From Anaerolineae bacterium (GTDB lineage: Bacteria; Chloroflexota; Anaerolineae; UBA7937; B3-Chlor): DNA of 48,831 bases. A model generated the notes under the pieces. That model did no database searches. It was not told where the DNA came from and worked only from the letters and a program-made list of their open reading frames with translations. Shown here one piece after another: positions 22,602 to 37,198 of this stretch; position 1 is the first letter of the stretch; every line of letters begins with the position of its first letter. The stretch covers positions 1 to 48,831 of the forward strand of contig DATKVP010000280.1 of the NCBI GenBank assembly GCA_035530015.1, written 5' to 3'. The translations under genes were made by a program, and so were the position numbers.

Positions 22602-22809
22602 AGACGAAAGATACAGGAGCAGAAAATGGATACTGTTCACCAGAACGCTGATAGGAGCAAGCGCCGCATGTACGGGCCTCGTAACTGTGCGTCTCCTTGG
22701 AGTGGAGACTGCGCCGGATGTATCTTCTATCTTGAATTTCTGGGGGCTCCTGAGTGCCTCTGTGCTCGGGGGCTATGGAGCCGTAAACCTGATAGGGAAG
22801 GGGAAGTAG
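22588..22809 (+). CDS. holin-like protein with two TMDs
   Basis: MSTDEDERYRSRKW, then TMDs ILFTRTLIGASAACTGLVTV and ILNFWGLLSASVLGGYGAVNLI. It overlaps the endolysin 3' end. Confidence 0.55.
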   Translation: MSTDEDERYRSRKWILFTRTLIGASAACTGLVTVRLLGVETAPDVSSILNFWGLLSASVLGGYGAVNLIGKGK

Positions 22810-22810
22810 G

Positions 22811-23224
22811 ATGTTACCGATCCCGTATCTGAAGGAAGTGCTCATCGGAGCCGTGGTGCTGCTCGTCGTTTTCATTGGCGTTCAGACAGCGCGGTTGTCA
22901 ATCTGCAAGTCCAACCTGCGGGCGTCACAGGCGGAACTCCAGAACGTCGTCAACATGCTGGAGCTGTCGAGGTCAACAGTTGTTGACCTCCGTGCCAAGA
23001 TCGACACACAGAACATCTTCCTGCGTGAGGCGCAGGCGCTTGGTATGTCGGCTCAGGCGGCGCAGGACGCGTCGCTCAGGATCGCTCGGGAGTTGGCGCT
23101 CGCCAAACAGAAGTTGGATTCTCTTTTACAAGAGCACTCAGCTCTGAAGAAGCGGGCCGAGAATCTCAACACCTGCGAGACCTACGAGCTGGTCTTGCAG
23201 AGTATCGCGGGGGTGCTGCCGTGA
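22811..23224 (+). CDS. i-spanin (Rz-like)
   Basis: N-terminal TMD VLIGAVVLLVVFIGV followed by a periplasmic coiled coil. Lysis-cassette position. Confidence 0.7.
   Translation: MLPIPYLKEVLIGAVVLLVVFIGVQTARLSICKSNLRASQAELQNVVNMLELSRSTVVDLRAKIDTQNIFLREAQALGMSAQAAQDASLRIARELALAKQKLDSLLQEHSALKKRAENLNTCETYELVLQSIAGVLP
22969..22990. repeat. palindrome family copy 3: GAGGTCAACA-GT-TGTTGACCTC (perfect 10-bp arms)
   Basis: Read directly. It lies inside the i-spanin gene and is translated as RSTVVDL. Confidence 0.95.
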
Positions 23225-23568
23225 ATAGATACAACAACTCTCCGTTCGACGGGTGTCTGATCCCGGCGCTGTGCCTGCTCATCTTCATCTGCTTCATGCT
23301 CAGTTTCATGGGTTGCGCCACCACCAAGTACGTGCCAAAGATTGAGTACCAGGAGGTGCTGATCTCACAACCGTGCATCATCTACATGGACATTCCTCCC
23401 AGGCCGTTCTACGAATCGTTCCCAGAGCTTGGGGGCGACAGCAAGGAGTGGGCGCTGGAAGTCGAGCGCGTCGTTCAGGCCAACCGAGCCAAGCGTGAGG
23501 CCTACATCGAGTCACTGCTCTTCTTGGTTGAGGAGCACAACAGATTGGAGCCGCAATGCAGTCCGTAG
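23221..23568 (+). CDS. o-spanin (Rz1-like outer-membrane lipoprotein)
   Basis: GTG start overlapping the i-spanin stop. Signal peptide with lipobox LSFMG|C, then a Pro-rich mature region. Separate (non-embedded) spanin architecture. Confidence 0.65.
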   Translation: MNRYNNSPFDGCLIPALCLLIFICFMLSFMGCATTKYVPKIEYQEVLISQPCIIYMDIPPRPFYESFPELGGDSKEWALEVERVVQANRAKREAYIESLLFLVEEHNRLEPQCSP

Positions 23569-24035: not shown

Positions 24036-24285
24036 TTCGGGTAGCTCGACAACTCAGTCGGTTATCCCACCGTGGCTAAAGGGGATCATGGAGCCACTGC
24101 TGGGTGGATCGGCGACCAAGCTACAGGAGTTTCAAAATCAAGGTTGGGACGTGCTTCAGGGGAACCAGCCACAGCAGGGGGTCAGTCTCGAGGAGCTTGC
24201 CAGCCGGCAGGTCACGGCGGGTGGAAGCCAGATGCCGCCTAACAAGGCCATCCCCAAGACCCCCGAGGCCTATGGGGGTATGTGA
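24019..24285 (+). CDS. hypothetical small protein (internal virion candidate)
   Basis: AAGGAG lies before ATG 24019. Gly/Gln/Ser-rich. Confidence 0.5.
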   Translation: MGGKNSSGSSTTQSVIPPWLKGIMEPLLGGSATKLQEFQNQGWDVLQGNQPQQGVSLEELASRQVTAGGSQMPPNKAIPKTPEAYGGM

Positions 24286-25328
24286 TGCCGGAGCTAGCGT
24301 CTGAACAGGGCGGTAAGGGCAGCGGCGGTAAGCCCAGTGGCGGTGCGGCAGACTCTGTATTCCACGGTGATACCCAGGGTAGCGGCAAGTTCGCCATGGG
24401 CGGCGGCAACCCGTTCATGTCCGGCACGCCGGGGTACAACTCCGGTGGTGGCTTCTACGACTTCAATCCCCAGGCCATAGCAGGAGCGTCCCCCCTCCTA
24501 AACCAGGCCGGGAAGATGGCCGGTGGCCTAGGCCAGGCTGGCCAGGGTGGCGTGCAAGGCGCGTACGGAGCGCTCGGGCAGGCCGGTGACATGTACAGCG
24601 GCATGGGTGGTCTCAACCCCATGTACCAGGCGATGGTGGGAGGTGCCGGTGGGCTCCAGGGGCTCAGCGGTAACAGCCAGGAAGCGATGGACATGTATCG
24701 CTCACTCCCCGGCATCGCGGGCACGCAGGTCACCGGAGAGAACGTCAAAAACGATCCCGCCATCAAGGCCGCGAACGAGCAGTTCATGAAGACCATGGCT
24801 CCCATGATCAAGGACTCCGCCGGCCTCGCCGGCCTCGGGAAGTCCGGGGTAATGACCAACGCGCTGGCGTCACAGCAGGCGCAGACGCTGCTCCCGCTGA
24901 TCCAGGGCAGCCTCGGGCGCGAGGAGCGCGGCATCGACAGGCTCCTCGGCGGCACCCAGGCTGGGGCTCAGGGGTTGTTCGGCGGCGGTCAGCAGGAGAC
25001 CAATAGGCTGCTCTCACAGCTTGGCCTCTATGGCCAGGCTGGTGGTGCGATGCAGCAGGGCGAGCAGGCCGGGGCCTCTGGGCTCGCTGGTATCGGCGGT
25101 GCCCTTGCCGGGCTCGGTGGACAGGAGCAGAACATGCTCATGAACGCCATCGGCGGAATGAGCGGACTCGGAGGCGAGTTCCGAAACATCGAACAGCAGA
25201 TGCTTAACGCCCCGTACGAGGAGCAGATGCGGATGTACTCCGAGGCACTTAACTCGATGTACGGTCCGTTCGGGATGATTCCTGGGATGTTTGGGTCGGC
25301 AAGCACCACACAGGGAGGCAAGAAGTAA
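24285..25328 (+). CDS. Gly/Gln/Met/Ala-rich low-complexity protein (internal virion or ejection candidate)
   Basis: 347 aa with reiterated GGLGQAGQGG / GLAGIGGALAGLGG segments. It lies upstream of the giant ORF. Confidence 0.55.
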   Translation: MPELASEQGGKGSGGKPSGGAADSVFHGDTQGSGKFAMGGGNPFMSGTPGYNSGGGFYDFNPQAIAGASPLLNQAGKMAGGLGQAGQGGVQGAYGALGQAGDMYSGMGGLNPMYQAMVGGAGGLQGLSGNSQEAMDMYRSLPGIAGTQVTGENVKNDPAIKAANEQFMKTMAPMIKDSAGLAGLGKSGVMTNALASQQAQTLLPLIQGSLGREERGIDRLLGGTQAGAQGLFGGGQQETNRLLSQLGLYGQAGGAMQQGEQAGASGLAGIGGALAGLGGQEQNMLMNAIGGMSGLGGEFRNIEQQMLNAPYEEQMRMYSEALNSMYGPFGMIPGMFGSASTTQGGKK

Positions 25329-25882
25329 TGGCCGCCGGGGCAGTTCTTGGGTTGATCCTGCCGCTGGTTTATCAGGCGATCAGTGGGCAGAAGCAGAAAG
25401 AGCAGAACATGATGAGTCAGGCCACTGCCATGAACCAGGACCAGATGAGCCAGAACCAGCCACTGACGCTCGAAGGCATTCCCGTGCCCCAGGCTCAGGA
25501 AGCACAGGGTACGCTGGAGGACGTGTCGAAGAGCGCGTACAACAGGAAGATTGCCACGTTCGACAAGCAGATTGAAGTTACCGAGGAAGCACCGATGGTC
25601 GAACAGCTTCCGCTTCCGATCGAGGACTCTCCGCTGCAACAGGGCGCTGGGTACGACTCAGCTCAGATCGCAGGATTCGACCCCACTGAACTCGCAATGG
25701 CGCAGGCCGAGGTGCCTCCAGGCACGATCCAACCGGAAAAGAAGAGCGGCATGACTGGCCTCGAGATGGCGCAGCTTGGGCTCGCGCTGGGGTCCATGAT
25801 GTTCCAGGGGCAGCCTGGACCTCGGCCACCGTCGCTCCCCGGAAACTCGTTCTCGCCGATGCGGCCGGTGTTTAGGGGGTAG
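25328..25882 (+). CDS. membrane-anchored protein (internal virion candidate)
   Basis: N-terminal TMD AAGAVLGLILPLVYQAI. TAATG overlap with the upstream stop. Confidence 0.5.
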   Translation: MAAGAVLGLILPLVYQAISGQKQKEQNMMSQATAMNQDQMSQNQPLTLEGIPVPQAQEAQGTLEDVSKSAYNRKIATFDKQIEVTEEAPMVEQLPLPIEDSPLQQGAGYDSAQIAGFDPTELAMAQAEVPPGTIQPEKKSGMTGLEMAQLGLALGSMMFQGQPGPRPPSLPGNSFSPMRPVFRG

Positions 25883-25884
25883 AT

Positions 25885-26886
25885 ATGAAATTTCAGGATC
25901 TCCTGCCGGCGATCGGAGGCTTCGCTGCTGGGGCGATAAGCCCGCAGACCGGCAAGGCCGGCGTCGCCACGCTCGACATGATGACCAACATGAAGGACCG
26001 GAGACGCCAGAGGGAGATGGCCGACGAGAGGATGGACATGTCCCGCAGGTCGGAGGGCAGGTCGGAGCAGAGCTTCGAGTGGGCCAAGGCCAACAACCTC
26101 TATACCGCGAAGCAGCGTGAGGACGACGAGCACGAGAGGGCCATGGCGCGAAACGCAGCGGCCAAGGCCATGGAGAGCTTCAAGGGTTCCGCGTACCCAG
26201 AGTACTTCAACGACGAACTCATGGGAGCTGAAACGCGCGCACAGGTTGGGCAAATATCGACAAAGATCCACAACTTCGTCAGCAACACCCCCATGAGTCA
26301 GAAGGCCGCGGACGAGTACGCCGCCCAGCTTGGACCAGGTGAGATCGCTTACGTCACCGTCAGAGCCGAAAACGGGCAGCTCGTTCGCCAGGGTCTTCGC
26401 AACCCGAAGTACCCGTACAATCAGCGCTCAACTGAGCCTGGGCAACTCGGGTCACTCGAGGCGATCACCGACGTAAGTGACGCGATGACCGGATACGAGA
26501 ACGCTCAGATCACGTTTGCAGGTCAGCAGAAGGAGGCGCTGGACAAGGCTCACGAGGACATCCCAGACGCGACGATGTGGGGTAGTCCAGAGTACGAGGG
26601 TCAGATCGCTAAAGCCGGTGGCGGACCAATCAAAGTTCCTAGATCCAGCACTGCCACTCAACGCGGCAAGGTCCGTGACGCTGAAGCTGACGTCCAGTCG
26701 GCCATTGCAGATGTACACAAGTACTTTGCGGCATACCCTGAACTCAGACAGCAGATCATGGCAGCGCTGGCCCAGACGCTCGGCGACCAGGCCGCCGCCG
26801 CTCCCGCCGCTGCTCCGGCTGCTGGTTCCGGCCAGCCAGGCGGGGTAGTACAATCGCTGGTGGAGAGATACAACAACCAGCCGTAG
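25885..26886 (+). CDS. hypothetical protein (internal virion candidate)
   Basis: 333 aa, charged and helical, with an Ala/Pro-rich C-terminus. No motif recognised. Confidence 0.5.
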   Translation: MKFQDLLPAIGGFAAGAISPQTGKAGVATLDMMTNMKDRRRQREMADERMDMSRRSEGRSEQSFEWAKANNLYTAKQREDDEHERAMARNAAAKAMESFKGSAYPEYFNDELMGAETRAQVGQISTKIHNFVSNTPMSQKAADEYAAQLGPGEIAYVTVRAENGQLVRQGLRNPKYPYNQRSTEPGQLGSLEAITDVSDAMTGYENAQITFAGQQKEALDKAHEDIPDATMWGSPEYEGQIAKAGGGPIKVPRSSTATQRGKVRDAEADVQSAIADVHKYFAAYPELRQQIMAALAQTLGDQAAAAPAAAPAAGSGQPGGVVQSLVERYNNQP

Positions 26887-26895
26887 GGAGTGAAC

Positions 26896-29800
26896 ATGCC
26901 GGACTTCAAGGGACTCTTCTCAGACCCAGAGTTCTACCAACTCAACGACGATGAGAGGACGCAGGCCTATCAGCAGCTCGCGGCCAGCGCGCCGGACATG
27001 CAGGACCTGTCCCCAGAGCAGCACAACCAGTTCTTCCGTGAGATGGTGCGCCTCAACGCTCCACAACAGCAGCAGATGCGCCTGTCCGGCGGGGAGATCG
27101 AGCGCATCACCGGGCAGCCAACGGACGTGGAACCCATGGTCGTGCGCGACGAGCGCCTGCTGGCCCCGCAGATACCGGAGGGCGTCGGAGCGCCGGAGGA
27201 GCAGCTCCCACAGACTGACATCGGCCGGGGGATGCTCAAGGGCGCGGAGCAGGTGGCACAGAGCGCCTACGATACCAACGCCCTGCTGGGCGCGCTCGGC
27301 GTAGCGCCGCGCACCGCTGGCGCAGAGGCGGGGCGTGTGGCTCAGGGCGTAAGCCAGATGGCCGGTCAAGTGCCGGACCCGGAGGGGCTGCTCGGTCAGA
27401 TCGCGCAGCACGGGTCGCTGACGGCCATGATGATGCTCGCCACGGCTCCAGCAATGGCCGCGGGAGGCGTCGGAGGCATCTCCGCGGCCGGGGCAGGCAG
27501 CGGAGGCCTGGAAGCGCTCATGGAGGCCGGTGGGGTCTTCAATCAGCTCAAACAGCAGGGCATGTCGGAGGAGGAAGCGCTGTCCAAGGCCGGTGATGAC
27601 TTCGTGAAGCAGGCCATGCTGCTGATCGGGACCGAGGCCGCCCAGGCTGGCATCCTCGGGAAGCTCGGTAAGGACGGCGTCAAGATCGCCAAGGAGATCA
27701 TCGAGCGAGCTGGGTCGAAGGTCGGCAGGAGGGCCGTGCTGGAGACCGGCAAGGCACTCGCCGGGGGAGCCGGAGTATGGGAGCTGAACCGGCAGTTCGA
27801 GGGCGCACAGGAGTGGCTCCAGGAGGGCATCAACCAGTCGGTCATGGAGACAGCCGGGATGTTCGACAACACGGAGCAGCAGAAGGAGGCCTACAAGGTT
27901 GGGAAGCTCATCGGCGGCGTGTTCGGGTTCGTCCCGGCGGCGGCCGGTGCCGCCATTGGTGTGGCAGAGGCACCAGGCGCGGCCATCCAGGGCGCGAAGA
28001 CCGTGAGGGCCGCGGAGCAGATCGGGAAGATCCGGGACATCATCGCCAACCCGGAGGAGGCGGCGCGAGAGGGCAAGATCGAGCTTACGAGGCCCCAGGG
28101 ACCAGATCCCAAGGAGGCCCGCTTCCGGGCTACCGAGACGCTGGACTACCTGACGACAGAGGAGCGCCAGACGTTCGCCCTCGGTGAGCAGCCACTGGAC
28201 GTGGAGGAGATCGCACGGCGCACCGAGCGCCCGGTGGAGGAAGTCAAGGGCGAGATCGACACGCTCGACCAGGCCGCGCAGGATCTCATCAGCCCGCCGC
28301 GGCAGCCGGCCCAGCCGGCCCCCGAGCACGAGGCTGTTCTCCGGGCCATATCTGACGGCATCGAAAAGACAGCGCAGGAGGCGGAGGCCATCGGGCAGCC
28401 CGAGCTGGCGGCAGATCGGCGCGCCAGGATCGGCAAGGTCCAGATTGTTGAGCCGCAAAATCTCTTCGAGCGCGGCGCGGTTGGAGTTGCGAAGATCGGT
28501 CGAAGCGACCGCAGGGTCGTTCTCTTCACACAGCCGCGTATCGAGGGTGAGCCGGTACACGGCGGCGTCTTCGTGAAACCTGGGCTCATCGCGATCGACG
28601 TAAGCGACGGGATCGCTCCGAGGGCCATCATCGGGACAATCTTCCACGAGGTGGTTCACGACGCGAAGGTCAGCAACCCGGAGCTGTACGCTGGCGTCAT
28701 GGAGGCCATCAAGGGCACACCACTGTGGCAGAAGTCGGAAGACACCCTCCTGGGCGAGGTCAACGACGATGAGATCTTCGCGCACGTCATGGAGCAGTCG
28801 CACGTCGCCACCGACGTCCTGTACGCGCTGGCGAACTACGCTGCCGTTGAGGACATGGCCAAGGCACCGAGCAGGGTTCGGGCCGTCATCGAGTACCTCA
28901 CTGGGCTGTTTCGAGCTGTCGCCGGCAAGCTGAGGTTGACCTCGGACCTGGACGGCAAGAACCTGAAGCAGATGAAGCGCATCAGTGCGCTGTTCGCAGA
29001 CCCAGAGACAAAACGAAACGCGGCCAAGGCGATCCTGGAGCTGACCGACATGCTCAAGGCCGCGCCACAGGAGGCACAGGGTGAGGTAACGGAGGGACCG
29101 CAGTTCTCGCGGACGTTCTCACAGCTTCGTCAGGACGAGGGGATAACTCCACGGGGGCTGGACTCCATCAGCACGGAGACGAAGCGCTTCTTTGAGGTCA
29201 AGGAAAGCCTATTCAAAGACCTGCGTAAGGCCGGCGTTCCATCGGACGAGGCCTACGAGAGGGCGGCCGAGGGTGCCGACACGTGGGTGCGGAAGAACAT
29301 GAAGATCCTTGACGAGGAGGACCTAGACGACGAGCAGAAGATGCTCGTGGACTACGCCCAGGGTCTCGGAGTGCAGGTCAACTTCTACGAGGGCGGACAC
29401 AAGATGGCCGGAGGCCACTTCATGACCGAGGGGCAGATCTGGATCAACAACGGCACGAAGACACTGTGGACGTTCCGGCAGCTCGTGGCGCACGAGATGA
29501 TGCACGACTTCAAGCGCAGACACCCGGCGCTCTGGCGCAAGATTTTAAGCAAGGCGATCGAGCTTATGCCGGAGGAGTGGAAGGCCACCAGAGAGGAGGT
29601 TCTCAAGCTCGACTCTTACAAGATGCTTACTGGTGACAAGCTCGACAACGAGGTGTTGGCGTTCCTGATCCACAACAACGCAAACGATTTTTGGGGCGCT
29701 GTCCTGAAGGCCGGCAGCGAGGAGAACGCCCCGGTTGCGTTCAGGCGTTTCTTCACGTGGGTCGGCGAGTTTGTCAAGAAGCTCAGTGGACCCATGTTTG

Positions 29801-32800
29801 AGTGGGCAAAGAGCGTCGGCATCATCGGCATCGCTACTGACATGACGTCCCCCTCGGAGCAGTTGGGGCGCTTCGTTGTCGAGCAGTTTACAAGGGGGAC
29901 GGTGAAGGACGGAGAGTACCAGGTCTACAACCCGCAGGCGCACGAGAAGCGTGTCGCCGAGAAGAAAGCGACCATGAAGAAGGCAATCACACAACAACTC
30001 TCTCGGCATGCGCCGCTTGCGAAGCGATTCGCAGCAGACCTGGAAAGAGGCATCGTCCCTGAGCAGCCTGAGCAGATCCCGCTGTTCTCCACAGAGCGTG
30101 TGGGTTACCCGCCGCTGGCACAGACCCCCGCTGAGCTACGCACGTGGCGCGCCAAGCTCGCGAAGATGGTCTGGCGCGGAGTCAAGGGCAAGATGTGGTA
30201 CGAGCTGTCGGCCGCGGCAATACTCCAGATGTCCGGCGGGAACCTCGAGACGGCACGTAAGTTCACTAGACTGGTTGCCGTCTACTCACCCCAGACCGGC
30301 GTGATGACCAACTGGCACCGCGCACTTACAGCCTGGCAGCGATACATGGCTGGATACTCCAAGAGCGACTTTCTCAAAGAGCGACTCGGTAACGATGACA
30401 ACCACCAGAAGGCCGCGGCCATCCTCTACGACGACGCAGCGTGGGACGGGGAGAAGACCAACAGCTTCTTCAGTAACCTGTTCACCCTGCTCGACTCTGA
30501 GGTACCGGACCGCGCCACCATCGACCTGTGGATGATGCGGGCAATGGGGTTCTCAGGGGACGCTCCAAGCCCCACACAGTACAGGGCCATGGAGAAGGAA
30601 GTGAAGCGCCTGGCCAAGAAGCTCGACGTCGAGACGCACCAGGCTCAGGCCATGATCTGGGTCTACGCCAAGTCGGTGTGGGAAAGCAAGGAAGTGAAGG
30701 AGGCCGCGTACGCTGAAGCGGCGAAGCGGGACATGACCACACACGTGCCCAAGGTCGCCAACGGGAAGATCGTGAAGGACAAGCGCGGCAAGGTCATGAT
30801 GACCTCCACGCCTGAGTTCGAGGCGCTGTACAGGGGGACGTTCAACGCTGCGGTCAAGCGGGACCTCGGAGCCGACGTGACGCTGTACCCGATCTCAGAG
30901 CAGTCCATGACGACGTTCGCGACTGGGTTGGAACGCCGAGTGGCGACGATCTCCATGGAGGCCATCCCCGGCGTGGGGTGGTTCAAGAATCTGTCCAGCG
31001 CAGACATATCAACCAAGGTCTGGTTCACGCTTGGAGTTGAGCAGGCGCTCGTGGACGAGGTCGGCGACATCATCGGTCAGGAGATGGGCATCAGCCCGGT
31101 CGCGGACATCAACATGATGCTGCTTGGCAACTCCGCGTACTACGACGGTGGACGCATTCAGGTCAATCCGAGTAGACAGATCAAGGTCCCGGCGGCCGCC
31201 AAGGGCGGTGCCGAGAGCAGCTACATGTGGGACGCGGCCAGCAAGGACCAGGTCACGCTGTACGCCGTCATCCGAGGGATGCTCACGGGCCAGGAATCGG
31301 TCGCCGGCTACCGCAGGTTCGATCAGAACCCGGTGGTCGAAGAGCGCAACATGGCCGAACTGAGGATTGGAAATCGTCTGAGCTACGACCAACAGACGGA
31401 GCTGGTGGAGAAACTCACGAACGTCGTGAAGAGCCGCAGTGGGAAGCTCCAGGGGTGGGAGGTGGCGCTGTACCCAACTGAAGACGGCGTGGCGTTCATG
31501 AACACCACCGCGGCCAACATGACCAACCTCGAGTTCCATGACGTGGTCAAGGAGACCATCAGTGAGCTGAGTTTCAAGAAGGGTGCTAAAATGAGCACCT
31601 GGGCCGCGGACACGTTCTACGTGGAGGCCGAAAACGACACAGGGGAGGTAGACACCTATGGGCAAATCATCGCAGGGAGAACGGACATACTCAGAAGGGT
31701 GGAGGATCGGGTCGCCGATAAACTCTCGAAGCACTATCTTGCAGCGCAGGACAGGGGACTCGGAGACGCCCCAGAGTGGGCCGTTGCCTACAGAGACACG
31801 GAAACGACTCTTCGACGAGATGCTAAAAGCTACACGCACTACTGGCACTTCTCGGTCGCGGACGTAACCGATGAAGGTATCAAGCGAGATTTTGCGGGAA
31901 CTGGAGCCACTGGCCAAGAGGGACAACGTTTTCGTTTTGATCCGAATACCGGAAAGCTGGATCCAGAGAGTGCTGTTATCCATCTGTACCTGCCTACCGC
32001 ACGCGCTGAGGCGGCGGTTGTATCCAAGGCTTCGTTTATCAACAAGGTTATTGCCGATCTCCGCCTTATTCCCACCGACAGCGCAGGACTAGGTGACCTA
32101 TATCGTAAACACAACGGCGACGCCGTGGCCGTGGCTACTGAGCTACGGTCCATGGGCTACGACGGTATCGTGGACGTGGACCGAGGGATGGTGCAGGTCA
32201 ACCGCGACATCGACGTGTCTGAACTGGGAGAAGGACACGAGCTGACACCGAAGGAGCGACGCGCGTGGAAGGGCGCTCTGAGGCTGGAGGATATGGAGGA
32301 GGGCGAGAGCTATGACCACATCCGAGTCCCCCGTGTCCAGGAACTGAAGCGCGCTGACGTGGAGCATGTTGCCTCTCGGTTGACCGACGACGGTGTGGCG
32401 TACTTCCCCAAGGGCACCAATGAGCGCATGGTCAAGCAGTACTTTGACGAGGTGAGGTCAACGTCTGTTGGCCTCGTGGCCACGAAACCGAGGCGTCCGC
32501 AGTTCTCCACCAGCATCGTAGACCAGCACCAGGTCCCCGTCGGAGACATGAACGTCGTAGACGACGAGGTTGCGTACGGCACGCGGTACGCCACGCAGTC
32601 CGGCCCCGGCTGGAGCCTGCCTGGCATGGACCGATGGGACTGGTTCGTAAAATGGGCACAGGACAGTCTCGTTCAATTCAAACGCTTAAATGATGTGTTC
32701 ACGGACCACGGAATCGAGATCGGTGAGGAGATCAACGTCCGTCTGGCCGAGGAGCTGTACCACGGCAAGGTACAGGAGGCCACGAAGCGCATCGACGAGA

Positions 32801-35424
32801 AGTACCAGCAGCCACTACTGAGAGCCCTGCGAGCGCTTTCCAAGAGCAGGGCTGAGACGGAAGCAGATCTGCTCGCCAAGTTCGACCTGTACCTCCACGC
32901 GCGCCACGCGTCCGAGCGCAACGCGCACATCAGGGAGGTGTGGCACACCCGCAAGCTGGAGCAGGCGCAGTTCCACAAGAACAAGATCCAGGACAAGCTT
33001 GCGATCTACAAAGATGAGCTGAAGGACGCCGAGGGTAAGCTGCACAAGAAGCGCCTGGAGAACGCCATCAAGTTCTGGGAGATGCGGCTGGTCTCCGCCG
33101 AGCGCACCATCGAGACGATCGTCAACCAAAAGGACCTCGACTCCGGCATGAGCAACGCCGAGGCGATCGGTGTCTTCCAAAGCACGCGCATAGATGGGCT
33201 CGACAAGAGGTTCAGTGAGCTGGCACGACAGTACGTGGACACGATGCTCAAGGAGCGCCTGGACGCGCTGTACAGTGAGGGCCTGGTTGACGAGAAGACC
33301 TACAAGGCCGTGGCCAAGTACAAGCACTACGTGCCGCTGAAGGGCAAGTTCATTGAGGGTGACCTCGAGGAAATGATCGAGATGTACCACGCGTCTTCGT
33401 CTGGGTTCGACATCCGCGGCGCTGAGCTGCCGTTCGTCACCGGCCGGGAGAAGGGCAGCAAGATCAACCCGATCCTCGCGCAGGCGTTCGTGGACACCCT
33501 GTCCGCCACTGACCGCATCGAGCGCAACCGAGTGGCTGTGGCGCTGCTCGGGCTGGCCGAGGAGCACCCAAACCAGAACCTCTGGGAGGTCAACAAGACC
33601 GTCAAGAAGAGGATCTTCGACAAGAAGACCGGTACAGTCAAGGAGGTCGAGGACTGGTTCGCTCGCAACGAGGCCAACGTCATCGCCGCCAAGCGTGACG
33701 GGCAGACGTACTACGTGACCCTGAAAGATCGTGGCCTGGCTGAGGCCATGAAGGGGCTCGGTATCGAGAACCTCTGGAAGTGGGTGCGTGGAGTGCGTGT
33801 CGTCATGCGTACGCTGGCCCAGCTCTACACCACGTGGAACCCCGACTTCATCCTGACGAACTTCGCCCGTGACTGGCAGCAGGCGATCGTCAGCTCCACG
33901 ACTGACATGGGCTCGAAGGCCGCAGTTGAGGTCTCCAAGGAGGCGTTCAAGGCCGTGCGTGGCATCCTCGCAGCCAACTTCCCAGACGCCCTTGGGAAGC
34001 TGACCAACGAGTACACTGCCGAGTACCACGAGCTGAAGGAAGCCGGCGGCAAGGTGGGGTTCTTCGGGATGCGTGGTATCGACGACATGCAGCGGGCCAT
34101 CATCAACGACATGAAATCAGGGCACCAGGCGGCCACAATGCGCGGTCTCCGCAGGATCGGCAACTACATCGGGTCAATCAACGAGGCCACCGAGAACGGC
34201 ATCCGGCTCGCCACGTACGTGGTGGCCAAGCGACACGGTGCGACCAGGGCGCAGGCCGCGAGCCTGGCCAAGAACGTGTCGGTGAACTTCAACCGGCGTG
34301 GTGACGTTGGTGGTGCGATCGGCGCTGGGTACCTGTTCTTCAACGCTGGGGTGCAGGGCGTAGACAGGTTCTGGAAGTCGATGAAGACCCCCAGCGGCCA
34401 GAAGCTCGCCGCGATGTACCTGGGGATCGGCTTCATGACGGCAGTGTGGTCGCGTGCCACCATGGGTGACGACGACGACGGAGAGCCCAGGTACGACAAG
34501 ATTTCAAACTTCACCAAGATGAGGAACTGGATCATCGGCATCCCAGGCACCGACGGTGAGTTCGTACAGATCCCGATGCCATACGGTTTTGGAGTGTGGG
34601 GTCAGCTCGGAAAGGAGCTGGAGCATCTGATCTTCTCAGGAGACGATCGGCTAGAGGCGGCCGGTGAGGCCGCGCTGCGAATGCTCTCCGGGCTGACCAC
34701 GCATTTCTCTCCCATTGGTGAAACGAGCTTCGAGAACGGATGGTACGCCATGGCGCGGCCGATCATCCCCACACTGGCGGAGCCGTGGACCGACGTCCTC
34801 GCGAACGAGACCTACTGGGGCGGCAAGATCTACCCGGCGAAAGCACCGTGGGACAACCGTTCGGATTCAGCCAGGCACTACCCCGGCAGGACCGTGACCG
34901 AGCGGCTGATGATCGGAGCGACAAGCAAGCTGAACTACTGGACGGGTGGGAGCGAGTACCGCTCCGGCATCATAGACCTCAATCCCAACGCGCTGACGTA
35001 CATTCTCGATAGCTACATTGGCCCCACCGGGGGCTCCCTTAAACGTCCCATCAACCTCATCCAAAAGAAATGGGCGGGGGACGACACGACGTGGAACGAC
35101 TGGATCATCCTGCGCCGGTTCCTCGGCGAGACCGCACCACAGTACTACGTGCCCGGCGAGTTCTACGACGCCGTCGAGGACGTTACGTCCGCCGCAGACG
35201 AGCTGGAGTGGTACAAGAAGGGCAACGGCAGCCGCGACGACTACAGGAGGTGGAGCGACAGGCACGGGTGGAAGGTGGGGCTCGATAAAAGTTCTCGGCA
35301 AGCCCAGAAGGCGCTGCGTGAAATTCGGAAGTCCTCCTCGTTGAGCGACCAGGAAAAGCGGGACAGGTCGCTGGCGATACAGCGTGGTTTCATAAAGAGG
35401 TACTTGAACTCAGAGAAGCGCTAG
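26896..35424 (+). CDS. giant 2842-aa protein with two zincin-like HExxH modules (polyvalent / ejected virion protein candidate)
   Basis: Single uninterrupted ORF with GGGAG 5 nt before ATG 26896. HEVVH at 28645-28659 and HEMMH at 29491-29505 sit in similar contexts. Gly/Ala-rich hydrophobic N-terminal segments. A terminator follows. Confidence 0.8.
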   Translation: MPDFKGLFSDPEFYQLNDDERTQAYQQLAASAPDMQDLSPEQHNQFFREMVRLNAPQQQQMRLSGGEIERITGQPTDVEPMVVRDERLLAPQIPEGVGAPEEQLPQTDIGRGMLKGAEQVAQSAYDTNALLGALGVAPRTAGAEAGRVAQGVSQMAGQVPDPEGLLGQIAQHGSLTAMMMLATAPAMAAGGVGGISAAGAGSGGLEALMEAGGVFNQLKQQGMSEEEALSKAGDDFVKQAMLLIGTEAAQAGILGKLGKDGVKIAKEIIERAGSKVGRRAVLETGKALAGGAGVWELNRQFEGAQEWLQEGINQSVMETAGMFDNTEQQKEAYKVGKLIGGVFGFVPAAAGAAIGVAEAPGAAIQGAKTVRAAEQIGKIRDIIANPEEAAREGKIELTRPQGPDPKEARFRATETLDYLTTEERQTFALGEQPLDVEEIARRTERPVEEVKGEIDTLDQAAQDLISPPRQPAQPAPEHEAVLRAISDGIEKTAQEAEAIGQPELAADRRARIGKVQIVEPQNLFERGAVGVAKIGRSDRRVVLFTQPRIEGEPVHGGVFVKPGLIAIDVSDGIAPRAIIGTIFHEVVHDAKVSNPELYAGVMEAIKGTPLWQKSEDTLLGEVNDDEIFAHVMEQSHVATDVLYALANYAAVEDMAKAPSRVRAVIEYLTGLFRAVAGKLRLTSDLDGKNLKQMKRISALFADPETKRNAAKAILELTDMLKAAPQEAQGEVTEGPQFSRTFSQLRQDEGITPRGLDSISTETKRFFEVKESLFKDLRKAGVPSDEAYERAAEGADTWVRKNMKILDEEDLDDEQKMLVDYAQGLGVQVNFYEGGHKMAGGHFMTEGQIWINNGTKTLWTFRQLVAHEMMHDFKRRHPALWRKILSKAIELMPEEWKATREEVLKLDSYKMLTGDKLDNEVLAFLIHNNANDFWGAVLKAGSEENAPVAFRRFFTWVGEFVKKLSGPMFEWAKSVGIIGIATDMTSPSEQLGRFVVEQFTRGTVKDGEYQVYNPQAHEKRVAEKKATMKKAITQQLSRHAPLAKRFAADLERGIVPEQPEQIPLFSTERVGYPPLAQTPAELRTWRAKLAKMVWRGVKGKMWYELSAAAILQMSGGNLETARKFTRLVAVYSPQTGVMTNWHRALTAWQRYMAGYSKSDFLKERLGNDDNHQKAAAILYDDAAWDGEKTNSFFSNLFTLLDSEVPDRATIDLWMMRAMGFSGDAPSPTQYRAMEKEVKRLAKKLDVETHQAQAMIWVYAKSVWESKEVKEAAYAEAAKRDMTTHVPKVANGKIVKDKRGKVMMTSTPEFEALYRGTFNAAVKRDLGADVTLYPISEQSMTTFATGLERRVATISMEAIPGVGWFKNLSSADISTKVWFTLGVEQALVDEVGDIIGQEMGISPVADINMMLLGNSAYYDGGRIQVNPSRQIKVPAAAKGGAESSYMWDAASKDQVTLYAVIRGMLTGQESVAGYRRFDQNPVVEERNMAELRIGNRLSYDQQTELVEKLTNVVKSRSGKLQGWEVALYPTEDGVAFMNTTAANMTNLEFHDVVKETISELSFKKGAKMSTWAADTFYVEAENDTGEVDTYGQIIAGRTDILRRVEDRVADKLSKHYLAAQDRGLGDAPEWAVAYRDTETTLRRDAKSYTHYWHFSVADVTDEGIKRDFAGTGATGQEGQRFRFDPNTGKLDPESAVIHLYLPTARAEAAVVSKASFINKVIADLRLIPTDSAGLGDLYRKHNGDAVAVATELRSMGYDGIVDVDRGMVQVNRDIDVSELGEGHELTPKERRAWKGALRLEDMEEGESYDHIRVPRVQELKRADVEHVASRLTDDGVAYFPKGTNERMVKQYFDEVRSTSVGLVATKPRRPQFSTSIVDQHQVPVGDMNVVDDEVAYGTRYATQSGPGWSLPGMDRWDWFVKWAQDSLVQFKRLNDVFTDHGIEIGEEINVRLAEELYHGKVQEATKRIDEKYQQPLLRALRALSKSRAETEADLLAKFDLYLHARHASERNAHIREVWHTRKLEQAQFHKNKIQDKLAIYKDELKDAEGKLHKKRLENAIKFWEMRLVSAERTIETIVNQKDLDSGMSNAEAIGVFQSTRIDGLDKRFSELARQYVDTMLKERLDALYSEGLVDEKTYKAVAKYKHYVPLKGKFIEGDLEEMIEMYHASSSGFDIRGAELPFVTGREKGSKINPILAQAFVDTLSATDRIERNRVAVALLGLAEEHPNQNLWEVNKTVKKRIFDKKTGTVKEVEDWFARNEANVIAAKRDGQTYYVTLKDRGLAEAMKGLGIENLWKWVRGVRVVMRTLAQLYTTWNPDFILTNFARDWQQAIVSSTTDMGSKAAVEVSKEAFKAVRGILAANFPDALGKLTNEYTAEYHELKEAGGKVGFFGMRGIDDMQRAIINDMKSGHQAATMRGLRRIGNYIGSINEATENGIRLATYVVAKRHGATRAQAASLAKNVSVNFNRRGDVGGAIGAGYLFFNAGVQGVDRFWKSMKTPSGQKLAAMYLGIGFMTAVWSRATMGDDDDGEPRYDKISNFTKMRNWIIGIPGTDGEFVQIPMPYGFGVWGQLGKELEHLIFSGDDRLEAAGEAALRMLSGLTTHFSPIGETSFENGWYAMARPIIPTLAEPWTDVLANETYWGGKIYPAKAPWDNRSDSARHYPGRTVTERLMIGATSKLNYWTGGSEYRSGIIDLNPNALTYILDSYIGPTGGSLKRPINLIQKKWAGDDTTWNDWIILRRFLGETAPQYYVPGEFYDAVEDVTSAADELEWYKKGNGSRDDYRRWSDRHGWKVGLDKSSRQAQKALREIRKSSSLSDQEKRDRSLAIQRGFIKRYLNSEKR
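32454..32475. repeat. palindrome family copy 4: GAGGTCAACG-TC-TGTTGGCCTC
   Basis: Read directly. It lies inside the giant ORF and is translated as RSTSVGL. Confidence 0.85.
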
Positions 35425-35551: not shown

Positions 35552-35572
35552 ATTAATGAAAGGAGATTGCAT

Positions 35573-37198
35573 GTGCTAGAACTCAGCGAGATTGGTGGTC
35601 GTATCGCTGTGACCGGAGATACCTATCCGGTCGCTGACCTGCTGAAGGTCATTCCTGGGTACAGGTGGGAAAAGGCGCTCAGGGCCTGGACGTACCCGCT
35701 TACCCCCCACAGTCTCAACCTACTCAAGACTGCGTTTCCAGATGCAAGGTCAACACTTGTTGACCTCGAAACAAAAACCGACCTTCTGAAACAGGCCATG
35801 GAAGCAAAGGCGGCCGACAGGTTCATCCCGTTCGAGACCAGGATGAGGCCGTGGCTGCACCAGATGCGCTCGTTCTACTTCGCCAAGTATCGCCTCATGG
35901 CCCAGGGTGGGGCGATGCTGGCGCTCGATATGGGCACCGGCAAGTCCAAGGTGACGATCGACCTGATCAACGAGTTCGACTGCAAGCGCGTGCTGATCAC
36001 GTGCCCGCCGAACGTGATGGACGTGTGGCCCGAGCAGTTCGAGGAACACAGTCCGGCGCATCATCGCGTCTACGTCTGCAACCGGAAGCACTCGGTGGCG
36101 CGCAGGTGGAAGGAAGCCGAACAGTTCATGGAGGAGCACCACGGATGTGGCATCGTGGTCGTCAACCACGAGGCGGTGTGGATGCCGGGGTTCCGAAATG
36201 AGGCGCTCGCGTGGCCATGGGACATGCTGGTCGTGGACGAGTGTCACCGAGCGAAGCTCGCCAGTGGAAAGCTGAGCCGATACCTGCACCGCCTGTCCAA
36301 GCACATCCCGCTACGCCTGGGCCTCACGGGCACCCCGTGCCCCCACAGCATTGACGACTTCTACGCGCAGGCCAGGTTCATCGACGAGTCGGTGCACGGC
36401 ACCAACCACCAGGTGTACAAGTCCAAGTACATGGTACAGATACCTGGGCACAACGACAGCTACCAGAAGGTCATTGGCTTCAAGAACATGGACGACTGGA
36501 ACGAGAAGTTCCACAGCATGGCCATCCGCGTGGAGGCCGACGACGTGCTGGATCTGCCGGCGTGCGTACACACTACCAGGTACTGCGACCTAAGCCCCGA
36601 GGAAGAGACCGCCTACAACGACATGAAGCACGAGCTGATCGCCGAGGTCAAGGGCGGGGTCATCACCGCGGCGAACGCGCTGGTGAAGCTGCTGCGTCTG
36701 GCACAGATCGTACAGGGCACCGTGACCAACGCGATGGGAGACAGTGTAGAGATCGGAGTGTCCAAGAAGACGGTGCTCATCGATACGTTCCACGAGATCC
36801 CCACCAGCGAACCGGTGATCGTGTTTTGCCGATTCAAGTGCGACCTAAAGAACATCAAACTCGCAGCCGCCCGCGGCGGCCGTGACAGCTACGAGCTGTC
36901 CGGGGCATGCAAGGAGCTGGACGAGTGGAAGGCCAACGGCGGCGTTCTCGCCGTACAGATTCAGTCCGGTGGCGTCGGCATCAGTATGGTGCAGGCCAAG
37001 TACTGCATCTACATGTCGAAAGACTTCTCACTCGGGAACTACGAGCAGTCGTTGGCCCGCATCAAGCGGCCTGGGCAGAATCGTAACGTTACATACATTC
37101 ACATCCTCGCGAGGGGCACGATCGACGAGACGATCAACAAGGCGCTTGCCCAGCGCAAGGACACGATCGAGGCGATCCTCGAAGAAATGGGAAGTTAG
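35573..37198 (+). CDS. SNF2-family helicase / DNA-dependent ATPase
   Basis: Motif I LDMGTGKSK, motif II VVDECHR, motif III LGLTGTP. GTG 35573 is preferred because AAAGGAG lies 7 nt upstream. The track's TTG at 35567 is too close to the SD. Confidence 0.85.
   Translation: MLELSEIGGRIAVTGDTYPVADLLKVIPGYRWEKALRAWTYPLTPHSLNLLKTAFPDARSTLVDLETKTDLLKQAMEAKAADRFIPFETRMRPWLHQMRSFYFAKYRLMAQGGAMLALDMGTGKSKVTIDLINEFDCKRVLITCPPNVMDVWPEQFEEHSPAHHRVYVCNRKHSVARRWKEAEQFMEEHHGCGIVVVNHEAVWMPGFRNEALAWPWDMLVVDECHRAKLASGKLSRYLHRLSKHIPLRLGLTGTPCPHSIDDFYAQARFIDESVHGTNHQVYKSKYMVQIPGHNDSYQKVIGFKNMDDWNEKFHSMAIRVEADDVLDLPACVHTTRYCDLSPEEETAYNDMKHELIAEVKGGVITAANALVKLLRLAQIVQGTVTNAMGDSVEIGVSKKTVLIDTFHEIPTSEPVIVFCRFKCDLKNIKLAAARGGRDSYELSGACKELDEWKANGGVLAVQIQSGGVGISMVQAKYCIYMSKDFSLGNYEQSLARIKRPGQNRNVTYIHILARGTIDETINKALAQRKDTIEAILEEMGS
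35746..35767. repeat. palindrome family copy 5: AAGGTCAACA-CT-TGTTGACCTC
   Basis: Read directly. It lies inside the SNF2 gene and is translated as RSTLVDL. Confidence 0.9.

What the first reader, a model, noticed from the sequence alone, without database searches (positions are those of the whole stretch)
26896..35424. 2842-aa single ORF with two duplicated HExxH (zincin-like) modules, preceded by low-complexity and membrane proteins
This ORF occupies about 17% of the window. Two HExxH motifs, IFHEVVHDAK (His at 28645) and LVAHEMMHDFK (His at 29491), sit in parallel contexts. In each, a Gly-Gly-containing beta-like segment precedes the motif and a D-x-E-(I/V)-(F/L)-A-x-(V/L) segment follows it. 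This suggests an internal duplication of a metallopeptidase-like domain. The N-terminal roughly 400 aa has Gly/Ala-rich hydrophobic stretches (LTAMMMLATAPAMAAGGVGGISAAGAG and LIGGVFGFVPAAAGAAIGVA) that could insert in membranes. The gene follows three ORFs with features of internal or ejection proteins (Gly/Gln/Met-rich, TMD-bearing) and lies after the lysis cassette. That arrangement resembles the giant 'polyvalent' virion proteins of some podoviruses and conjugative elements, which are thought to be delivered with the DNA and to bundle several anti-host activities. A local YVPLKGKF (from 33331) is only loosely reminiscent of what I recall as a 'PLxRFG' family signature. More than 1800 aa downstream of the second HExxH have no motif I can name by eye.
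Basis: partly seen in the sequence, partly recalled or inferred. Interest (0 to 1): 0.65.

Follow-up and report, generated by a model that had tools for sequence, protein, structure and literature searches.

The report
Giant cysteine-free phage ejection polyprotein
This 2842-residue gene of an uncultured short-tailed phage is a new member of the known "polyvalent" giant virion proteins that are shot into the host with the DNA, here carrying two copies of a zinc-protease-like module, so it is a well-dissected example of a known kind and not a new kind of system.

Summary
One ORF (26896-35424, 2842 aa) has exactly two HExxH motifs, at His584 and His866. They sit in ~180-aa modules that align with each other.

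The protein is an LPD38-type phage polyvalent protein (Pfam LPD38, 93.8 bits). Its last ~960 aa are shared with giant proteins of Stx, Vibrio, Ralstonia and Bcep22-like phages. Two of these have been found in virions by mass spectrometry.

Across 26 related modules only H, E, H and a downstream Glu are invariant. An AlphaFold model (pLDDT 84.6) gives helix, three strands, HExxH helix and Glu helix. It matches segments of other phage polyvalent proteins (Foldseek 5e-5). It matches no solved zincin significantly, and no Pfam peptidase model.

New points:
- The protein and the three upstream ORFs contain no cysteine, like the T7, N4 and P22 ejection proteins.
- Hydrophobic segments sit only near the two ends across the family.
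- A conserved [FY]-S-[RTIVKM] motif marks all three domain junctions.
- aa 1640-1790 is a tentative ADP-ribosyltransferase.

Most likely mechanism: the protein is packaged in the capsid, ejected unfolded, and delivers cargo domains. Self-cleavage by the two zincins is inferred only.

It is a new member of a known kind.

The parts
26896..35424 (+). Giant ORF, 2842 aa, no cysteine. An LPD38-type phage polyvalent / ejection protein.
   Evidence: ORF and translation. Pfam LPD38 and DUF7178. PHROG 14770/616/10691. 0 Cys against 0.96% in 16 other window ORFs.
26896..27063 (+). N-terminal leader, aa 1-56 (MPDFKGLFSDPEFYQ...). Conserved in all seven clade members.
   Evidence: Alignment. Local phmmer.
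27424..27480 (+). Gly/Ala-rich hydrophobic segment 1, aa 177-195. Candidate membrane-interacting element.
   Evidence: Hydropathy peak 1.42. N-terminal hydrophobic peaks are a family trait.
27907..27972 (+). Gly/Ala-rich hydrophobic segment 2, aa 338-359.
   Evidence: Hydropathy peak 1.92. Family-wide clustering of such peaks at the two ends.
28177..28248 (+). Winged-helix / HTH-like motif, aa 428-451 (LDVEEIARRTERPVEEV).
   Evidence: Pfam DprA_WH, E = 3e-5, 24.4 bits against a cutoff of 22.9 when the N-terminal 500 aa are scanned alone. The surrounding region (aa ~369-480) matches all clade relatives.
28498..28995 (+). Zincin-like module 1, aa 535-700. H584-E585-x-x-H588, with candidate third ligand E626.
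   Evidence: AlphaFold two-module model: strands 26-31, 44-47 and 50-54, then the HExxH helix 61-79; pLDDT 68-85.
29098..29112 (+). Junction motif 1, P-Q-F-S-R (aa 735-739), inside a low-confidence linker.
   Evidence: Conserved [FY]-S at this position in all 7 relatives despite variable linkers. Model pLDDT < 50 over aa 681-759.
29293..29850 (+). Zincin-like module 2, aa 800-985. H866-E867-x-x-H870, with E919.
   Evidence: Invariant H, E, H, E in 26 modules. AlphaFold pLDDT 84.6, pTM 0.76, topology helix / 3 strands / HExxH helix / Glu helix. BFVD Foldseek hits to polyvalent proteins, E down to 5e-5.
30079..30093 (+). Junction motif 2, P-L-F-S-T (aa 1062-1066).
   Evidence: A comparable A-Y-S-R-(A/G)-G motif lies ~16-22 residues upstream of the DUF7178 match in dozens of other giant proteins.
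30094..30711 (+). DUF7178 domain, aa 1067-1272. Function unknown; enzyme-like invariant residues (WYE, YSP, K..F..N, D.WM, Q.QA..W).
   Evidence: Pfam DUF7178 1.3e-9. PHROG 3842. Found in >500 giant proteins. Invariant columns.
30763..31800 (+). Extension domain, aa ~1290-1635, that travels with DUF7178. Function unknown.
   Evidence: 89 of 238 local proteins. No Pfam or PDB relative.
31813..32265 (+). Candidate divergent ADP-ribosyltransferase (ART-PolyVal-like), aa 1640-1790. H1651, Y1698 and D1756 align with the H-Y-D triad. Tentative.
   Evidence: hhalign probability 84.7%, E = 6.7e-6, against <=1.1% for 15 control comparisons. A plain HMM sees only the GYDG motif. The H-Y-D definition is from PMC5512222.
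32281..32496 (+). Small conserved domain, aa 1796-1867, preceding the C-terminal module.
   Evidence: Local phmmer: the C-terminal ~90 residues of the aa 1635-1880 query still match P0002 and P0005, which lack the ART-like part.
32497..32511 (+). Junction motif 3, P-Q-F-S-T (aa 1868-1872), immediately before the C-terminal module.
   Evidence: The same kind of motif lies at this boundary in Stx2-86 gp35 (YYSRTS) and Vibrio K249 (MFSKEV/GFSIPD). It occurs in 24 of 67 family members against 6.4% expected.
32533..35421 (+). Conserved C-terminal module, aa 1880-2842. Always C-terminal in the family. Candidate packaging/ejection chassis.
   Evidence: tblastn ~29% identity over 92-96% to Vibrio and Stx phage giant proteins. 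Median 21 residues follow the match end in 121 proteins. Invariant motifs.
33328..33351 (+). YVPLKGKF motif, aa 2145-2152, inside the C-terminal module.
   Evidence: Y and P invariant, V and L >=90% conserved in 30 family members. Position.
34486..35109 (+). Pfam LPD38 domain, aa 2531-2738. The family's C-terminal hydrophobic helix lies just upstream, at aa ~2504-2519.
   Evidence: LPD38 1.8e-26, 93.8 bits against a cutoff of 27. C-terminal hydrophobic peaks in relatives. Position of the window's equivalent segment.
24282..26886 (+). Three upstream cysteine-free ORFs (348, 184 and 333 aa). Gly/Gln/Met-rich or with N-terminal hydrophobic segments. Candidate co-ejected proteins.
   Evidence: Translations. 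0 Cys each. Same gene order in relative contig L004. No Pfam or PHROG family.

Best explanation
**Identity and route of action.** The gene encodes a phage-type large polyvalent protein of the LPD38 family. It is made late, packaged inside the capsid, and expelled through the short tail with the DNA.

**Architecture (shown).**
- A conserved N-terminal region with Gly/Ala-rich hydrophobic segments.
- A conserved ~960-aa C-terminal module containing LPD38.
- Between them, exchangeable cargo: two paralogous zincin-like modules (H584/E585/H588/E626 and H866/E867/H870/E919), DUF7178 with its extension domain, and a possible ADP-ribosyltransferase.
- The protein has no cysteine.

**Mechanism (inferred).** The protein threads out unfolded. 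Its terminal hydrophobic segments engage the host envelope, together with the three upstream cysteine-free proteins. The cargo reaches the periplasm or cytoplasm.

**Least certain step.** The two zincins bind zinc and cut the polyprotein, or its co-ejected partners, in the flexible inter-domain linkers. The candidate sites are the conserved [FY]-S-[RTIVKM] junctions at aa 737, 1064 and 1870. This would release separate working pieces.
For: **Family membership.**
- Pfam LPD38, 93.8 bits.
- C-terminal homology to giant proteins of Stx, Vibrio, Ralstonia and Burkholderia phages.
- The module is always C-terminal.
- The cargo of relatives varies: InPase, LPD5, LPD1, ART-PolyVal, ddrB-ParB, MuF_C.

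**Virion location of homologues.**
- phi24B gp47 is abundant in virions by MS but absent from the cryo-EM model, and was proposed to be an ejection protein.
- JC1 gp69 was detected in virions with 51 unique peptides.

**Context.** The gene closes a structural module with an SU10-type portal and no tail-tube or tape-measure genes. The same gene order occurs in a relative.

**Cysteine.**
- The ORF and its three upstream neighbours have no Cys.
- 201 giant family-related proteins have 87 Cys in 588,729 aa.
- Proven ejection proteins also have none: T7 gp15/gp16, N4 gp50/51/52 and P22 gp7/20/16.

**Hydrophobic segments.** In 123 family members the peaks fall 81 in the first 20% of length, 86 in the last 20%, and 20 in the middle 60%.

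**Zincin modules.**
- Invariant H, E, H, E.
- AlphaFold topology.
- BFVD matches to polyvalent proteins, followed at lower rank by SprT-, IrrE- and M48-named proteins.
- M48 and Spartan lead the non-significant PDB list.
- The recurrent sub-threshold Pfam hits are all zincins.

**Junction motif.**

**Self-processing idea.** Iyer et al. 2017 proposed it for this protein class.
Against: - No experiment exists on this protein.
- No Pfam peptidase model, including MPTase-PolyVal, matches the modules even at E <= 10.
- No solved zincin matches significantly (best E = 0.66).
- The junction motif is not linked to having a zincin. 11 of 24 motif-bearing relatives have no HExxH, and 41 of 123 family members have none. 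Cleavage there by the in-cis zincins is therefore weakly supported.
- N4 vRNAP, which also carries an HExxH domain, is packaged unprocessed according to Iyer et al..
- The hydrophobic segments are weak and Gly/Ala-rich. They are not classical transmembrane helices.
- The C-terminal module has no structural or functional assignment.
Confidence: 0.6

Rival explanations
1. The protein is packaged and ejected as above, but the two zincins act on host molecules and not on the polyprotein. They could clear a path through the cell wall or periplasm, as the phi24B authors propose for gp47's metallopeptidase. Or they could cleave host defence or other proteins as injected effectors.
For: - The protein has no recognisable lysozyme or transglycosylase, unlike T7 gp16 and the DC1 (Bcep22-like) giant protein.
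- The phi24B preprint assigns a peptidoglycan-degrading role to gp47's metallopeptidase.
- The junction motif is independent of HExxH presence.
- Many polyvalent cargo domains are host-directed effectors.
Against: - The nearest named folds are SprT, IrrE and M48. From general knowledge these are protein or peptide proteases, whereas known cell-wall metallopeptidases use other folds and motifs.
- No target is known.
- Each module sits just upstream of a conserved junction.
Confidence: 0.25
2. The zincin-like modules are structural. They would be a metal-binding or even inactive scaffold needed for encapsidation or folding, as is thought for the HExxH-bearing C1 region of N4 vRNAP. There would be no proteolysis at all.
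For: - N4 vRNAP is packaged unprocessed, and its HExxH region is required for encapsidation.
- The N4 structure paper reports the motif but no protease activity.
- No significant match to any characterised peptidase.
Against: H, E, H and the distal Glu are the only invariant residues across 26 modules that are otherwise 13-31% identical. This pattern is typical of a retained catalytic metal site. The general-base Glu in particular is dispensable for mere metal binding.
Confidence: 0.12
3. The ORF is an ordinary tail component, either a tape-measure-like or a repeat-built structural protein. The HExxH motifs would be incidental.
For: Very large size, and a position at the end of the structural genes.
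Against: - No tandem repeats in the ORF.
- No tape-measure, tail-tube or sheath families in the window, and a podovirus-type SU10 portal.
- An LPD38 hit and homologues in short-tailed phages.
- phi24B gp47 is absent from the resolved tail.
- Two HExxH motifs against 0.064 expected, conserved in all relatives.
Confidence: 0.03

Closest known systems
phi24B gp47 / Stx2-86 gp35 (933W-type Stx phages): 2783-2811-aa LPD5-LPD1-MuF_C-LPD38 protein
   Same: - ~29% identity over the last ~900 aa.
- Giant size and no cysteine.
- Last gene of the virion module.
- A [FY]SR-type motif at the start of the C-terminal module.
- Two HExxH motifs in the Stx2-86 protein.
- gp47 is virion-associated and was proposed to be an ejection protein.
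   Different: The cargo is entirely different: LPD5, LPD1 and MuF_C there, against twin zincins of another clade, DUF7178 and a candidate ART here. The capsid lineage of the window phage is unrelated.
Bcep22 gp75 / JC1 gp69 / Ralstonia Cimandef gp14 ('DarB-like antirestriction', ~4500 aa)
   Same: - Shared C-terminal module, 24-25% identity over 66-78% of the query.
- Encoded on the same strand directly after virion structural genes.
- JC1 gp69 was detected in purified virions.
   Different: Those proteins carry helicase, methylase and transglycosylase cargo (annotations). No such domain is present here. The label 'DarB-like' should not be transferred.
Zincin-like MPTase domains of polyvalent proteins (Iyer et al. 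2017)
   Same: - An HExxH helix and a Glu on a later helix, after a three-stranded sheet and an N-terminal helix.
- One to several copies per protein, with variable inserts between the two helices.
- Fold matches to polyvalent-protein segments in BFVD.
   Different: - No match to any Pfam peptidase model.
- Asp or Asn directly follows the second His, not three residues later as in the clade described in the paper.
- Which of the paper's 12 clades this is could not be checked.
N4 virion RNA polymerase gp50 (3500 aa)
   Same: A giant, cysteine-free, encapsidated and ejected protein. It has an internal HExxH domain followed by a ~110-kDa helical C-terminal region with no known structural relatives.
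   Different: There is no RNA polymerase module here and no detectable sequence similarity. N4 lacks LPD38 according to Iyer's phage-domain lists (inference).
T7 gp14/15/16 and P22 gp7/20/16 ejection proteins
   Same: - Encoded as a cluster at the end of the virion genes.
- Cysteine-free.
- Released with the DNA.
   Different: They are several separate, smaller proteins. There is no sequence similarity. T7 gp16 carries a transglycosylase domain that is absent here.

Membership tests
Phage-type large polyvalent protein with LPD38 (Pfam PF18857; Iyer et al. 2017) | LPD38 domain above Pfam's gathering score | tested here: met
   93.8 bits against a cutoff of 27, aa 2531-2738.
Phage-type large polyvalent protein with LPD38 (Pfam PF18857; Iyer et al. 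2017) | Several unrelated domains in one very large polypeptide, with the domain set varying among relatives | tested here: met
   Two zincin-like modules, DUF7178, its extension, a candidate ART and LPD38 here. Relatives carry InPase, LPD5, LPD1, ART-PolyVal, ddrB-ParB and MuF_C. Clade member P0005 has a different central domain.
Phage-type large polyvalent protein with LPD38 (Pfam PF18857; Iyer et al. 2017) | Encoded among phage late / virion genes | tested here: met
   Terminase, SU10-type portal, capsid, fibre-like and lysis genes lie upstream on the same strand. Same order in L004.
Phage-type large polyvalent protein with LPD38 (Pfam PF18857; Iyer et al. 2017) | Packaged in the virion and delivered into the host | not testable with these tools
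   Shown only for homologues. The cysteine-free composition shared with proven ejection proteins is indirect support.
Zincin (gluzincin-type) metallopeptidase domain | HExxH on a helix, plus a third ligand Glu on a later helix | tested here: met
   H584/E585/H588 + E626 and H866/E867/H870 + E919. The four residues are the only invariant columns in 26 modules. Both motifs fall in predicted helices.
Zincin (gluzincin-type) metallopeptidase domain | Backing helix and three-stranded sheet before the active-site helix | tested here: met
   AlphaFold model of aa 800-985: H13-24, E28-33, E42-45, E48-52, H61-76 (HExxH), H114-128 (Glu); pLDDT 84.6. Coordinates could not be inspected, so ligand geometry is unverified.
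Zincin (gluzincin-type) metallopeptidase domain | Significant sequence or structure match to a characterised zincin family | tested here: inconclusive
   - Pfam gives only sub-threshold hits: M78, YgjP, WLM, DUF2268, and DUF6782 at 4.6e-5 in one relative.
- In the PDB Foldseek search the best E is 0.66, although M48 enzymes and Spartan lead the list.
- BFVD is significant only against other polyvalent proteins. SprT- and IrrE-named proteins follow at probability 0.8-0.87.
Zincin (gluzincin-type) metallopeptidase domain | Zinc binding and peptidase activity | not testable with these tools
   Needs biochemistry.
P1 DarB-like antirestriction protein | Helicase and DNA methyltransferase domains | tested here: not met
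   No helicase or methylase family in Pfam, NCBIfam or PHROGs. The similarity to 'DarB-like' phage proteins is confined to the C-terminal module.
Tape-measure protein | Tape-measure family match, repeats, and tail-tube/chaperone neighbours | tested here: not met
ART-PolyVal (Tox-ART-HYD2 clade) ADP-ribosyltransferase | H in strand 1, Y in strand 2, D in strand 5, and a match to the family profile | tested here: inconclusive
   - hhalign gives 84.7%, E = 6.7e-6. H1651, Y1698 and D1756 align with YHGT, PVY and GYDG, and are conserved in six relatives.
- Pfam ART-PolyVal does not hit.
- A plain HMM gives only 4.5 bits on the GYDG motif.

The most novel reading that the evidence does not exclude
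LPD38-type giants may be built on a general 'ejectable polyprotein' chassis. It has four features:
- Near-total cysteine avoidance.
- Membrane-seeking segments only at the two ends.
- Exchangeable cargo in the middle.
- A short conserved [FY]-S-[RTIVKM] motif at each domain junction.

The junction motif would be a dedicated cleavage or hand-over site. In this phage the twin zincins would cut at aa 737, 1064 and 1870, releasing four pieces in the host.

If so, the cysteine-free signature would also give a simple sequence rule for finding ejected proteins in uncultured phages.
Probability: 0.2. Interest if true: 0.6.

Novelty: new member of a known kind. Interest (0 to 1): 0.4.

Why it matters
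Giant polyvalent proteins take up a fifth of some phage genomes, and almost nothing is known about how they work. This example comes from an uncultured lineage whose capsid genes are barely related to any isolated phage.

It shows that the LPD38 C-terminal module travels between very different short-tailed phages with swappable cargo. It also defines an uncatalogued clade of twin zincin modules with clear candidate catalytic residues.

Three simple features are directly testable by virion proteomics and point mutants:
- Cysteine avoidance, shared with the T7, N4 and P22 ejection proteins.
- End-located hydrophobic segments.
- A conserved junction motif.

If the junction motif proves to be a cleavage site, it would put on a testable footing the still-unproven idea that polyvalent proteins are cut into working parts after injection.

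Tried and rejected
**Searches on the ORF or the HExxH region that found nothing.**
- Megablast of the ORF against phage genomes: no match.
- Word-indexed protein search with the HExxH region alone: no hit. Relatives exist, since the exhaustive search found four clusters, so this was an index limitation.
- NCBIfam: nothing.
- PDB sequence searches with the whole protein and with profiles of the modules, DUF7178 and the C-terminal module: only chance matches.
- IMG/VR scan with the HExxH region: no relative.

**Structure searches.**
- Foldseek with the two-module model (pLDDT 64.6) gave long, meaningless helical alignments. I therefore spent the second structure job on one module alone, and the C-terminal module and DUF7178 were not modelled.
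- A first C-terminal alignment was too large to submit.

**Domain comparisons.** hhalign of DUF7178, its extension and the small aa 1796-1870 domain against ART, InPase, LPD5 and MuF_C profiles: no relation.

**Upstream ORFs.** Pfam and PHROGs give no family for the three upstream ORFs.

**Ideas rejected or weakened.**
- Tape-measure protein and DarB-like identity: rejected (see membership tests).
- The junction motif as specific to zincin-bearing proteins: weakened, because it shows no association with HExxH presence.
- The 'PLxRFG' recollection: could not be tied to any family.
Full report
**1. The observation**

The frame is open from 26890. The likely start is ATG 26896, behind a GGGAG ribosome-binding site, and the stop ends at 35424. 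This gives 2842 aa, or 17.5% of the window.

There are exactly two HExxH motifs, at His584 (nt 28645) and His866 (nt 29491). Composition predicts 0.064. The two ~180-aa modules align over ~140 aa at 23% identity, E = 2e-5.

The two Gly/Ala-rich hydrophobic strings are the only hydropathy peaks in the protein. YVPLKGKF begins at nt 33328, one codon before the stated position. The ORF contains no tandem repeats.

**2. The genomic setting**

All genes around the ORF are on the + strand, in this order:
- terminase large subunit (5710-7131);
- an SU10-type portal (8290-10311);
- major capsid protein (11786-13147);
- two large fibre-like ORFs;
- a lysis block containing an Amidase_3 endolysin (22071-22601);
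- three ORFs with no known family (24282-26886);
- the giant ORF;
- an SNF2 helicase.

There are no tail-tube, sheath or tape-measure genes, so a short-tailed phage is likely. The capsid protein has only seven distant matches among isolated phages. The ORF has no nucleotide-level match in phage genomes. The same gene order (amidase, three ORFs of 346, 153 and 331 aa, giant ORF, SNF2) is found on the contig of a 46%-identical relative.

**3. What the protein is**

Pfam finds LPD38 (aa 2531-2738, 93.8 bits against a cutoff of 27) and DUF7178 (aa 1096-1259). Three PHROG families of giant proteins cover aa ~1920-2813.

By tblastn the last ~900 aa are 24-29% identical to the C-termini of giant proteins in these phages:
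- 933W-type Stx phages;
- Vibrio crassostreae phages;
- Ralstonia phages (Cimandef, Gervaise);
- Bcep22-like Burkholderia phages.

In 121 related proteins this module is always at the C-terminus, with a median of 21 residues after the match. The parts upstream vary: InPase, LPD5, LPD1, ART-PolyVal, ddrB-ParB, MuF_C, helicases and methylases.

Iyer et al. 2017 list LPD38 as confined to phage-type polyvalent proteins. Two homologues have been detected in virions. JC1 gp69 gave 51 unique peptides. phi24B gp47 was abundant by MS but absent from the cryo-EM model, and its authors proposed it as an ejection protein.

The label 'DarB-like' used for some homologues should not be transferred, because no helicase or methylase domain is present.

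**4. The HExxH modules**

Only four 50%-identity clusters in 1.84 billion representatives share this region (P0001, P0002, P0003 and P0005). Two further relatives came from the word-indexed search. All have exactly two HExxH motifs at equivalent positions.

A profile of the 14 modules detects single related modules in 23 other giant proteins. In a 26-module alignment, 13-31% identical to module 2, the only invariant residues are H866, E867, H870 and E919. One Gly is ~90% conserved. This is the gluzincin pattern that Iyer et al. describe for polyvalent-protein metallopeptidases.

An AlphaFold model of aa 800-985 (pLDDT 84.6, pTM 0.76) has this order of elements:
- a helix;
- three strands;
- the HExxH helix;
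- two inserted helices;
- the helix carrying E919.

Module 1 has the same order in the two-module model.

Foldseek against viral predicted structures gives four hits at E <= 1e-3, and 16 with probability >= 0.95. Every named target among them is a polyvalent-type or large multidomain phage protein. SprT-like, IrrE-like and M48-named proteins follow lower in the list.

Foldseek against the PDB gives nothing significant (best E = 0.66). However, eight of the top nine hits are M48-type zinc peptidases: ZMPSTE24, BepA and the putative peptidase 3c37. Spartan's SprT domain aligns at 4.7 A over 76 columns.

Pfam gives no hit for the window's modules. For relatives it gives only sub-threshold hits, and the recurrent ones are all zincin families.

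My reading is that this is a real, probably catalytic, zincin-like domain of an uncatalogued clade. The fold assignment stays short of proof.

**5. The rest of the anatomy**

| Region (aa) | Feature | Evidence |
|---|---|---|
| 1-480 | Clade-specific region: conserved 56-aa leader, two hydrophobic segments, winged-helix-like motif at 428-451 | |
| 1067-1272 and ~1290-1635 | DUF7178 and a companion domain; >500 giant proteins; invariant polar residues; no known relative | |
| 1640-1790 | Candidate ART-PolyVal-like domain | |
| 1796-1867 | Small conserved domain | |

For aa 1640-1790, an ART-PolyVal profile built from relatives scores 84.7% in hhalign, E = 6.7e-6. Fifteen control comparisons scored <= 1.1%. 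H1651, Y1698 and D1756 fall on the family's H-Y-D triad. A plain HMM sees only the GYDG motif, so this assignment is tentative.

**6. Features bearing on mechanism**

*(a) Cysteine.*
- The ORF and the three ORFs before it contain no Cys in 3707 aa. Sixteen other window ORFs have 0.96%, giving P ~ 1e-12 for the giant ORF alone.
- 201 giant family-related proteins have 87 Cys in 588,729 residues, and 151 of them have none.
- Experimentally established ejection proteins are also Cys-free, while most neighbouring virion proteins are not. These are T7 gp15 and gp16, N4 gp50, gp51 and gp52, and P22 gp7, gp20 and gp16.
- I take this as compositional support that all four window ORFs leave the capsid. 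One plausible reason, which is my inference, is that they cross the oxidising periplasm unfolded.

*(b) Hydrophobic segments.* In 123 LPD38 proteins, hydrophobic 19-residue peaks fall 81 in the first fifth of the length, 86 in the last fifth, and only 20 in the middle 60%. This fits a conserved two-ended chassis with cargo in between.

*(c) Junction motif.*
- P-Q-F-S-R (aa 735), P-L-F-S-T (aa 1062) and P-Q-F-S-T (aa 1868) sit at the three inter-domain junctions. Composition predicts 0.0025 such motifs.
- An [FY]-S-[RTIVKM] core is kept at each junction in all seven clade members, despite indel-rich linkers.
- The same kind of motif lies ~16-22 residues upstream of the DUF7178 match in many other proteins.
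- It also precedes the C-terminal module in Stx2-86 gp35, in Vibrio K249, and in 24 of 67 family members, against 6.4% expected.
- It is not associated with the presence of HExxH. It may therefore be a site for another protease, or a structural boundary element.

**7. Mechanism**

*Shown:*
- family membership;
- modular architecture;
- a conserved metal-site signature;
- composition and context typical of ejection proteins.

*Inferred:*
- packaging in the capsid;
- ejection in an unfolded state;
- engagement of the envelope through the terminal segments, together with the three upstream proteins;
- delivery of the cargo domains.

*Least certain:* the twin zincins cut the polyprotein at the junctions. 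This is the processing idea of Iyer et al.. Against it, N4 vRNAP is packaged unprocessed, and the junction motif is independent of HExxH.

*Rivals:* host-directed proteolysis, as the phi24B authors suggest; a purely structural zincin-like scaffold; or a tail structural protein. The last is effectively excluded.

**8. Novelty**

The kind is known: polyvalent proteins were described in 2017, LPD38 is in Pfam, and homologues have virion proteomics. This protein is a new member with a new cargo combination, in a poorly sampled phage lineage.

Three points may be new and are easily tested: cysteine avoidance as a signature of ejected proteins, the two-ended hydrophobic layout, and the junction motif. 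Neither Iyer et al. 2017 nor the 2026 N4 structure paper uses the word cysteine. I could not, however, search the whole literature.

Noticed in passing
window 24282-35424, and 10700-11743: Four consecutive ORFs (348, 184, 333 and 2842 aa) and the scaffold-position ORF between portal and capsid contain no cysteine, while the other window ORFs average ~1%. The proven ejection proteins of T7 (gp15, gp16), N4 (gp50-52) and P22 (gp7, 20, 16), plus the P22 scaffold and needle, are likewise cysteine-free.
   Followed up: yes
window 21802-23568: The lysis block lies between the tail-fibre genes and the ejection-protein genes. It contains a 90-aa ORF with a hydrophobic N-terminal segment, an Amidase_3 endolysin (22071-22601), a small two-TM-like ORF (22626-22809), a 137-aa ORF with an N-terminal TM segment (22811-23224), and a 115-aa ORF whose sequence SFMGC resembles a lipobox (23221-23568). 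The last two look like separate i- and o-spanins, which would imply a Gram-negative host.
   Followed up: partly
window 35567-37198; L004 13728-15359: An SNF2-family helicase gene directly follows the giant ORF, both here and in a 46%-identical relative. In other phages SNF2 modules are fused inside the polyvalent protein, so here the helicase may be a split-off partner.
   Followed up: no
P0005 (2778 aa relative), aa ~1190-1800: One clade member keeps both zincin modules, the junction motifs and the C-terminal module. It replaces DUF7178 and its extension with an unrelated Cys-containing domain (e.g. TTPCGYCYVESAREKF). This is a clean example of cargo swapping within one chassis.
   Followed up: partly
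P0152, P0153, P0005, between the two zincin modules: Three relatives carry an extra ~50-aa insert (…EEPTxIPxGE…YxVxR…GKVxAxxxFxxxKxAKAYxxSVxG) just before junction 1. The window protein lacks it.
   Followed up: no
window 24282-25328: A 348-aa ORF that is extremely rich in Gly, Gln, Met and Ala, with short imperfect DNA repeats (24309-24344, 24818-24837). It matches no protein family, and its composition is reminiscent of disordered internal proteins.
   Followed up: partly
window 1-2000: This is the only part of the window with negative GC skew, and it holds a minus-strand ORF (1104-1814) with HTH/sigma-70 region-4-like motifs. It is probably a divergently transcribed regulatory gene. No terminal repeat links the two window ends.
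   Followed up: partly
window 28177-28248 (aa 428-451): A DprA-type winged-helix-like motif sits in the N-terminal region of the giant protein, within a stretch (aa ~369-480) shared by all clade relatives. It may be a DNA-binding element of an ejected protein.
   Followed up: partly
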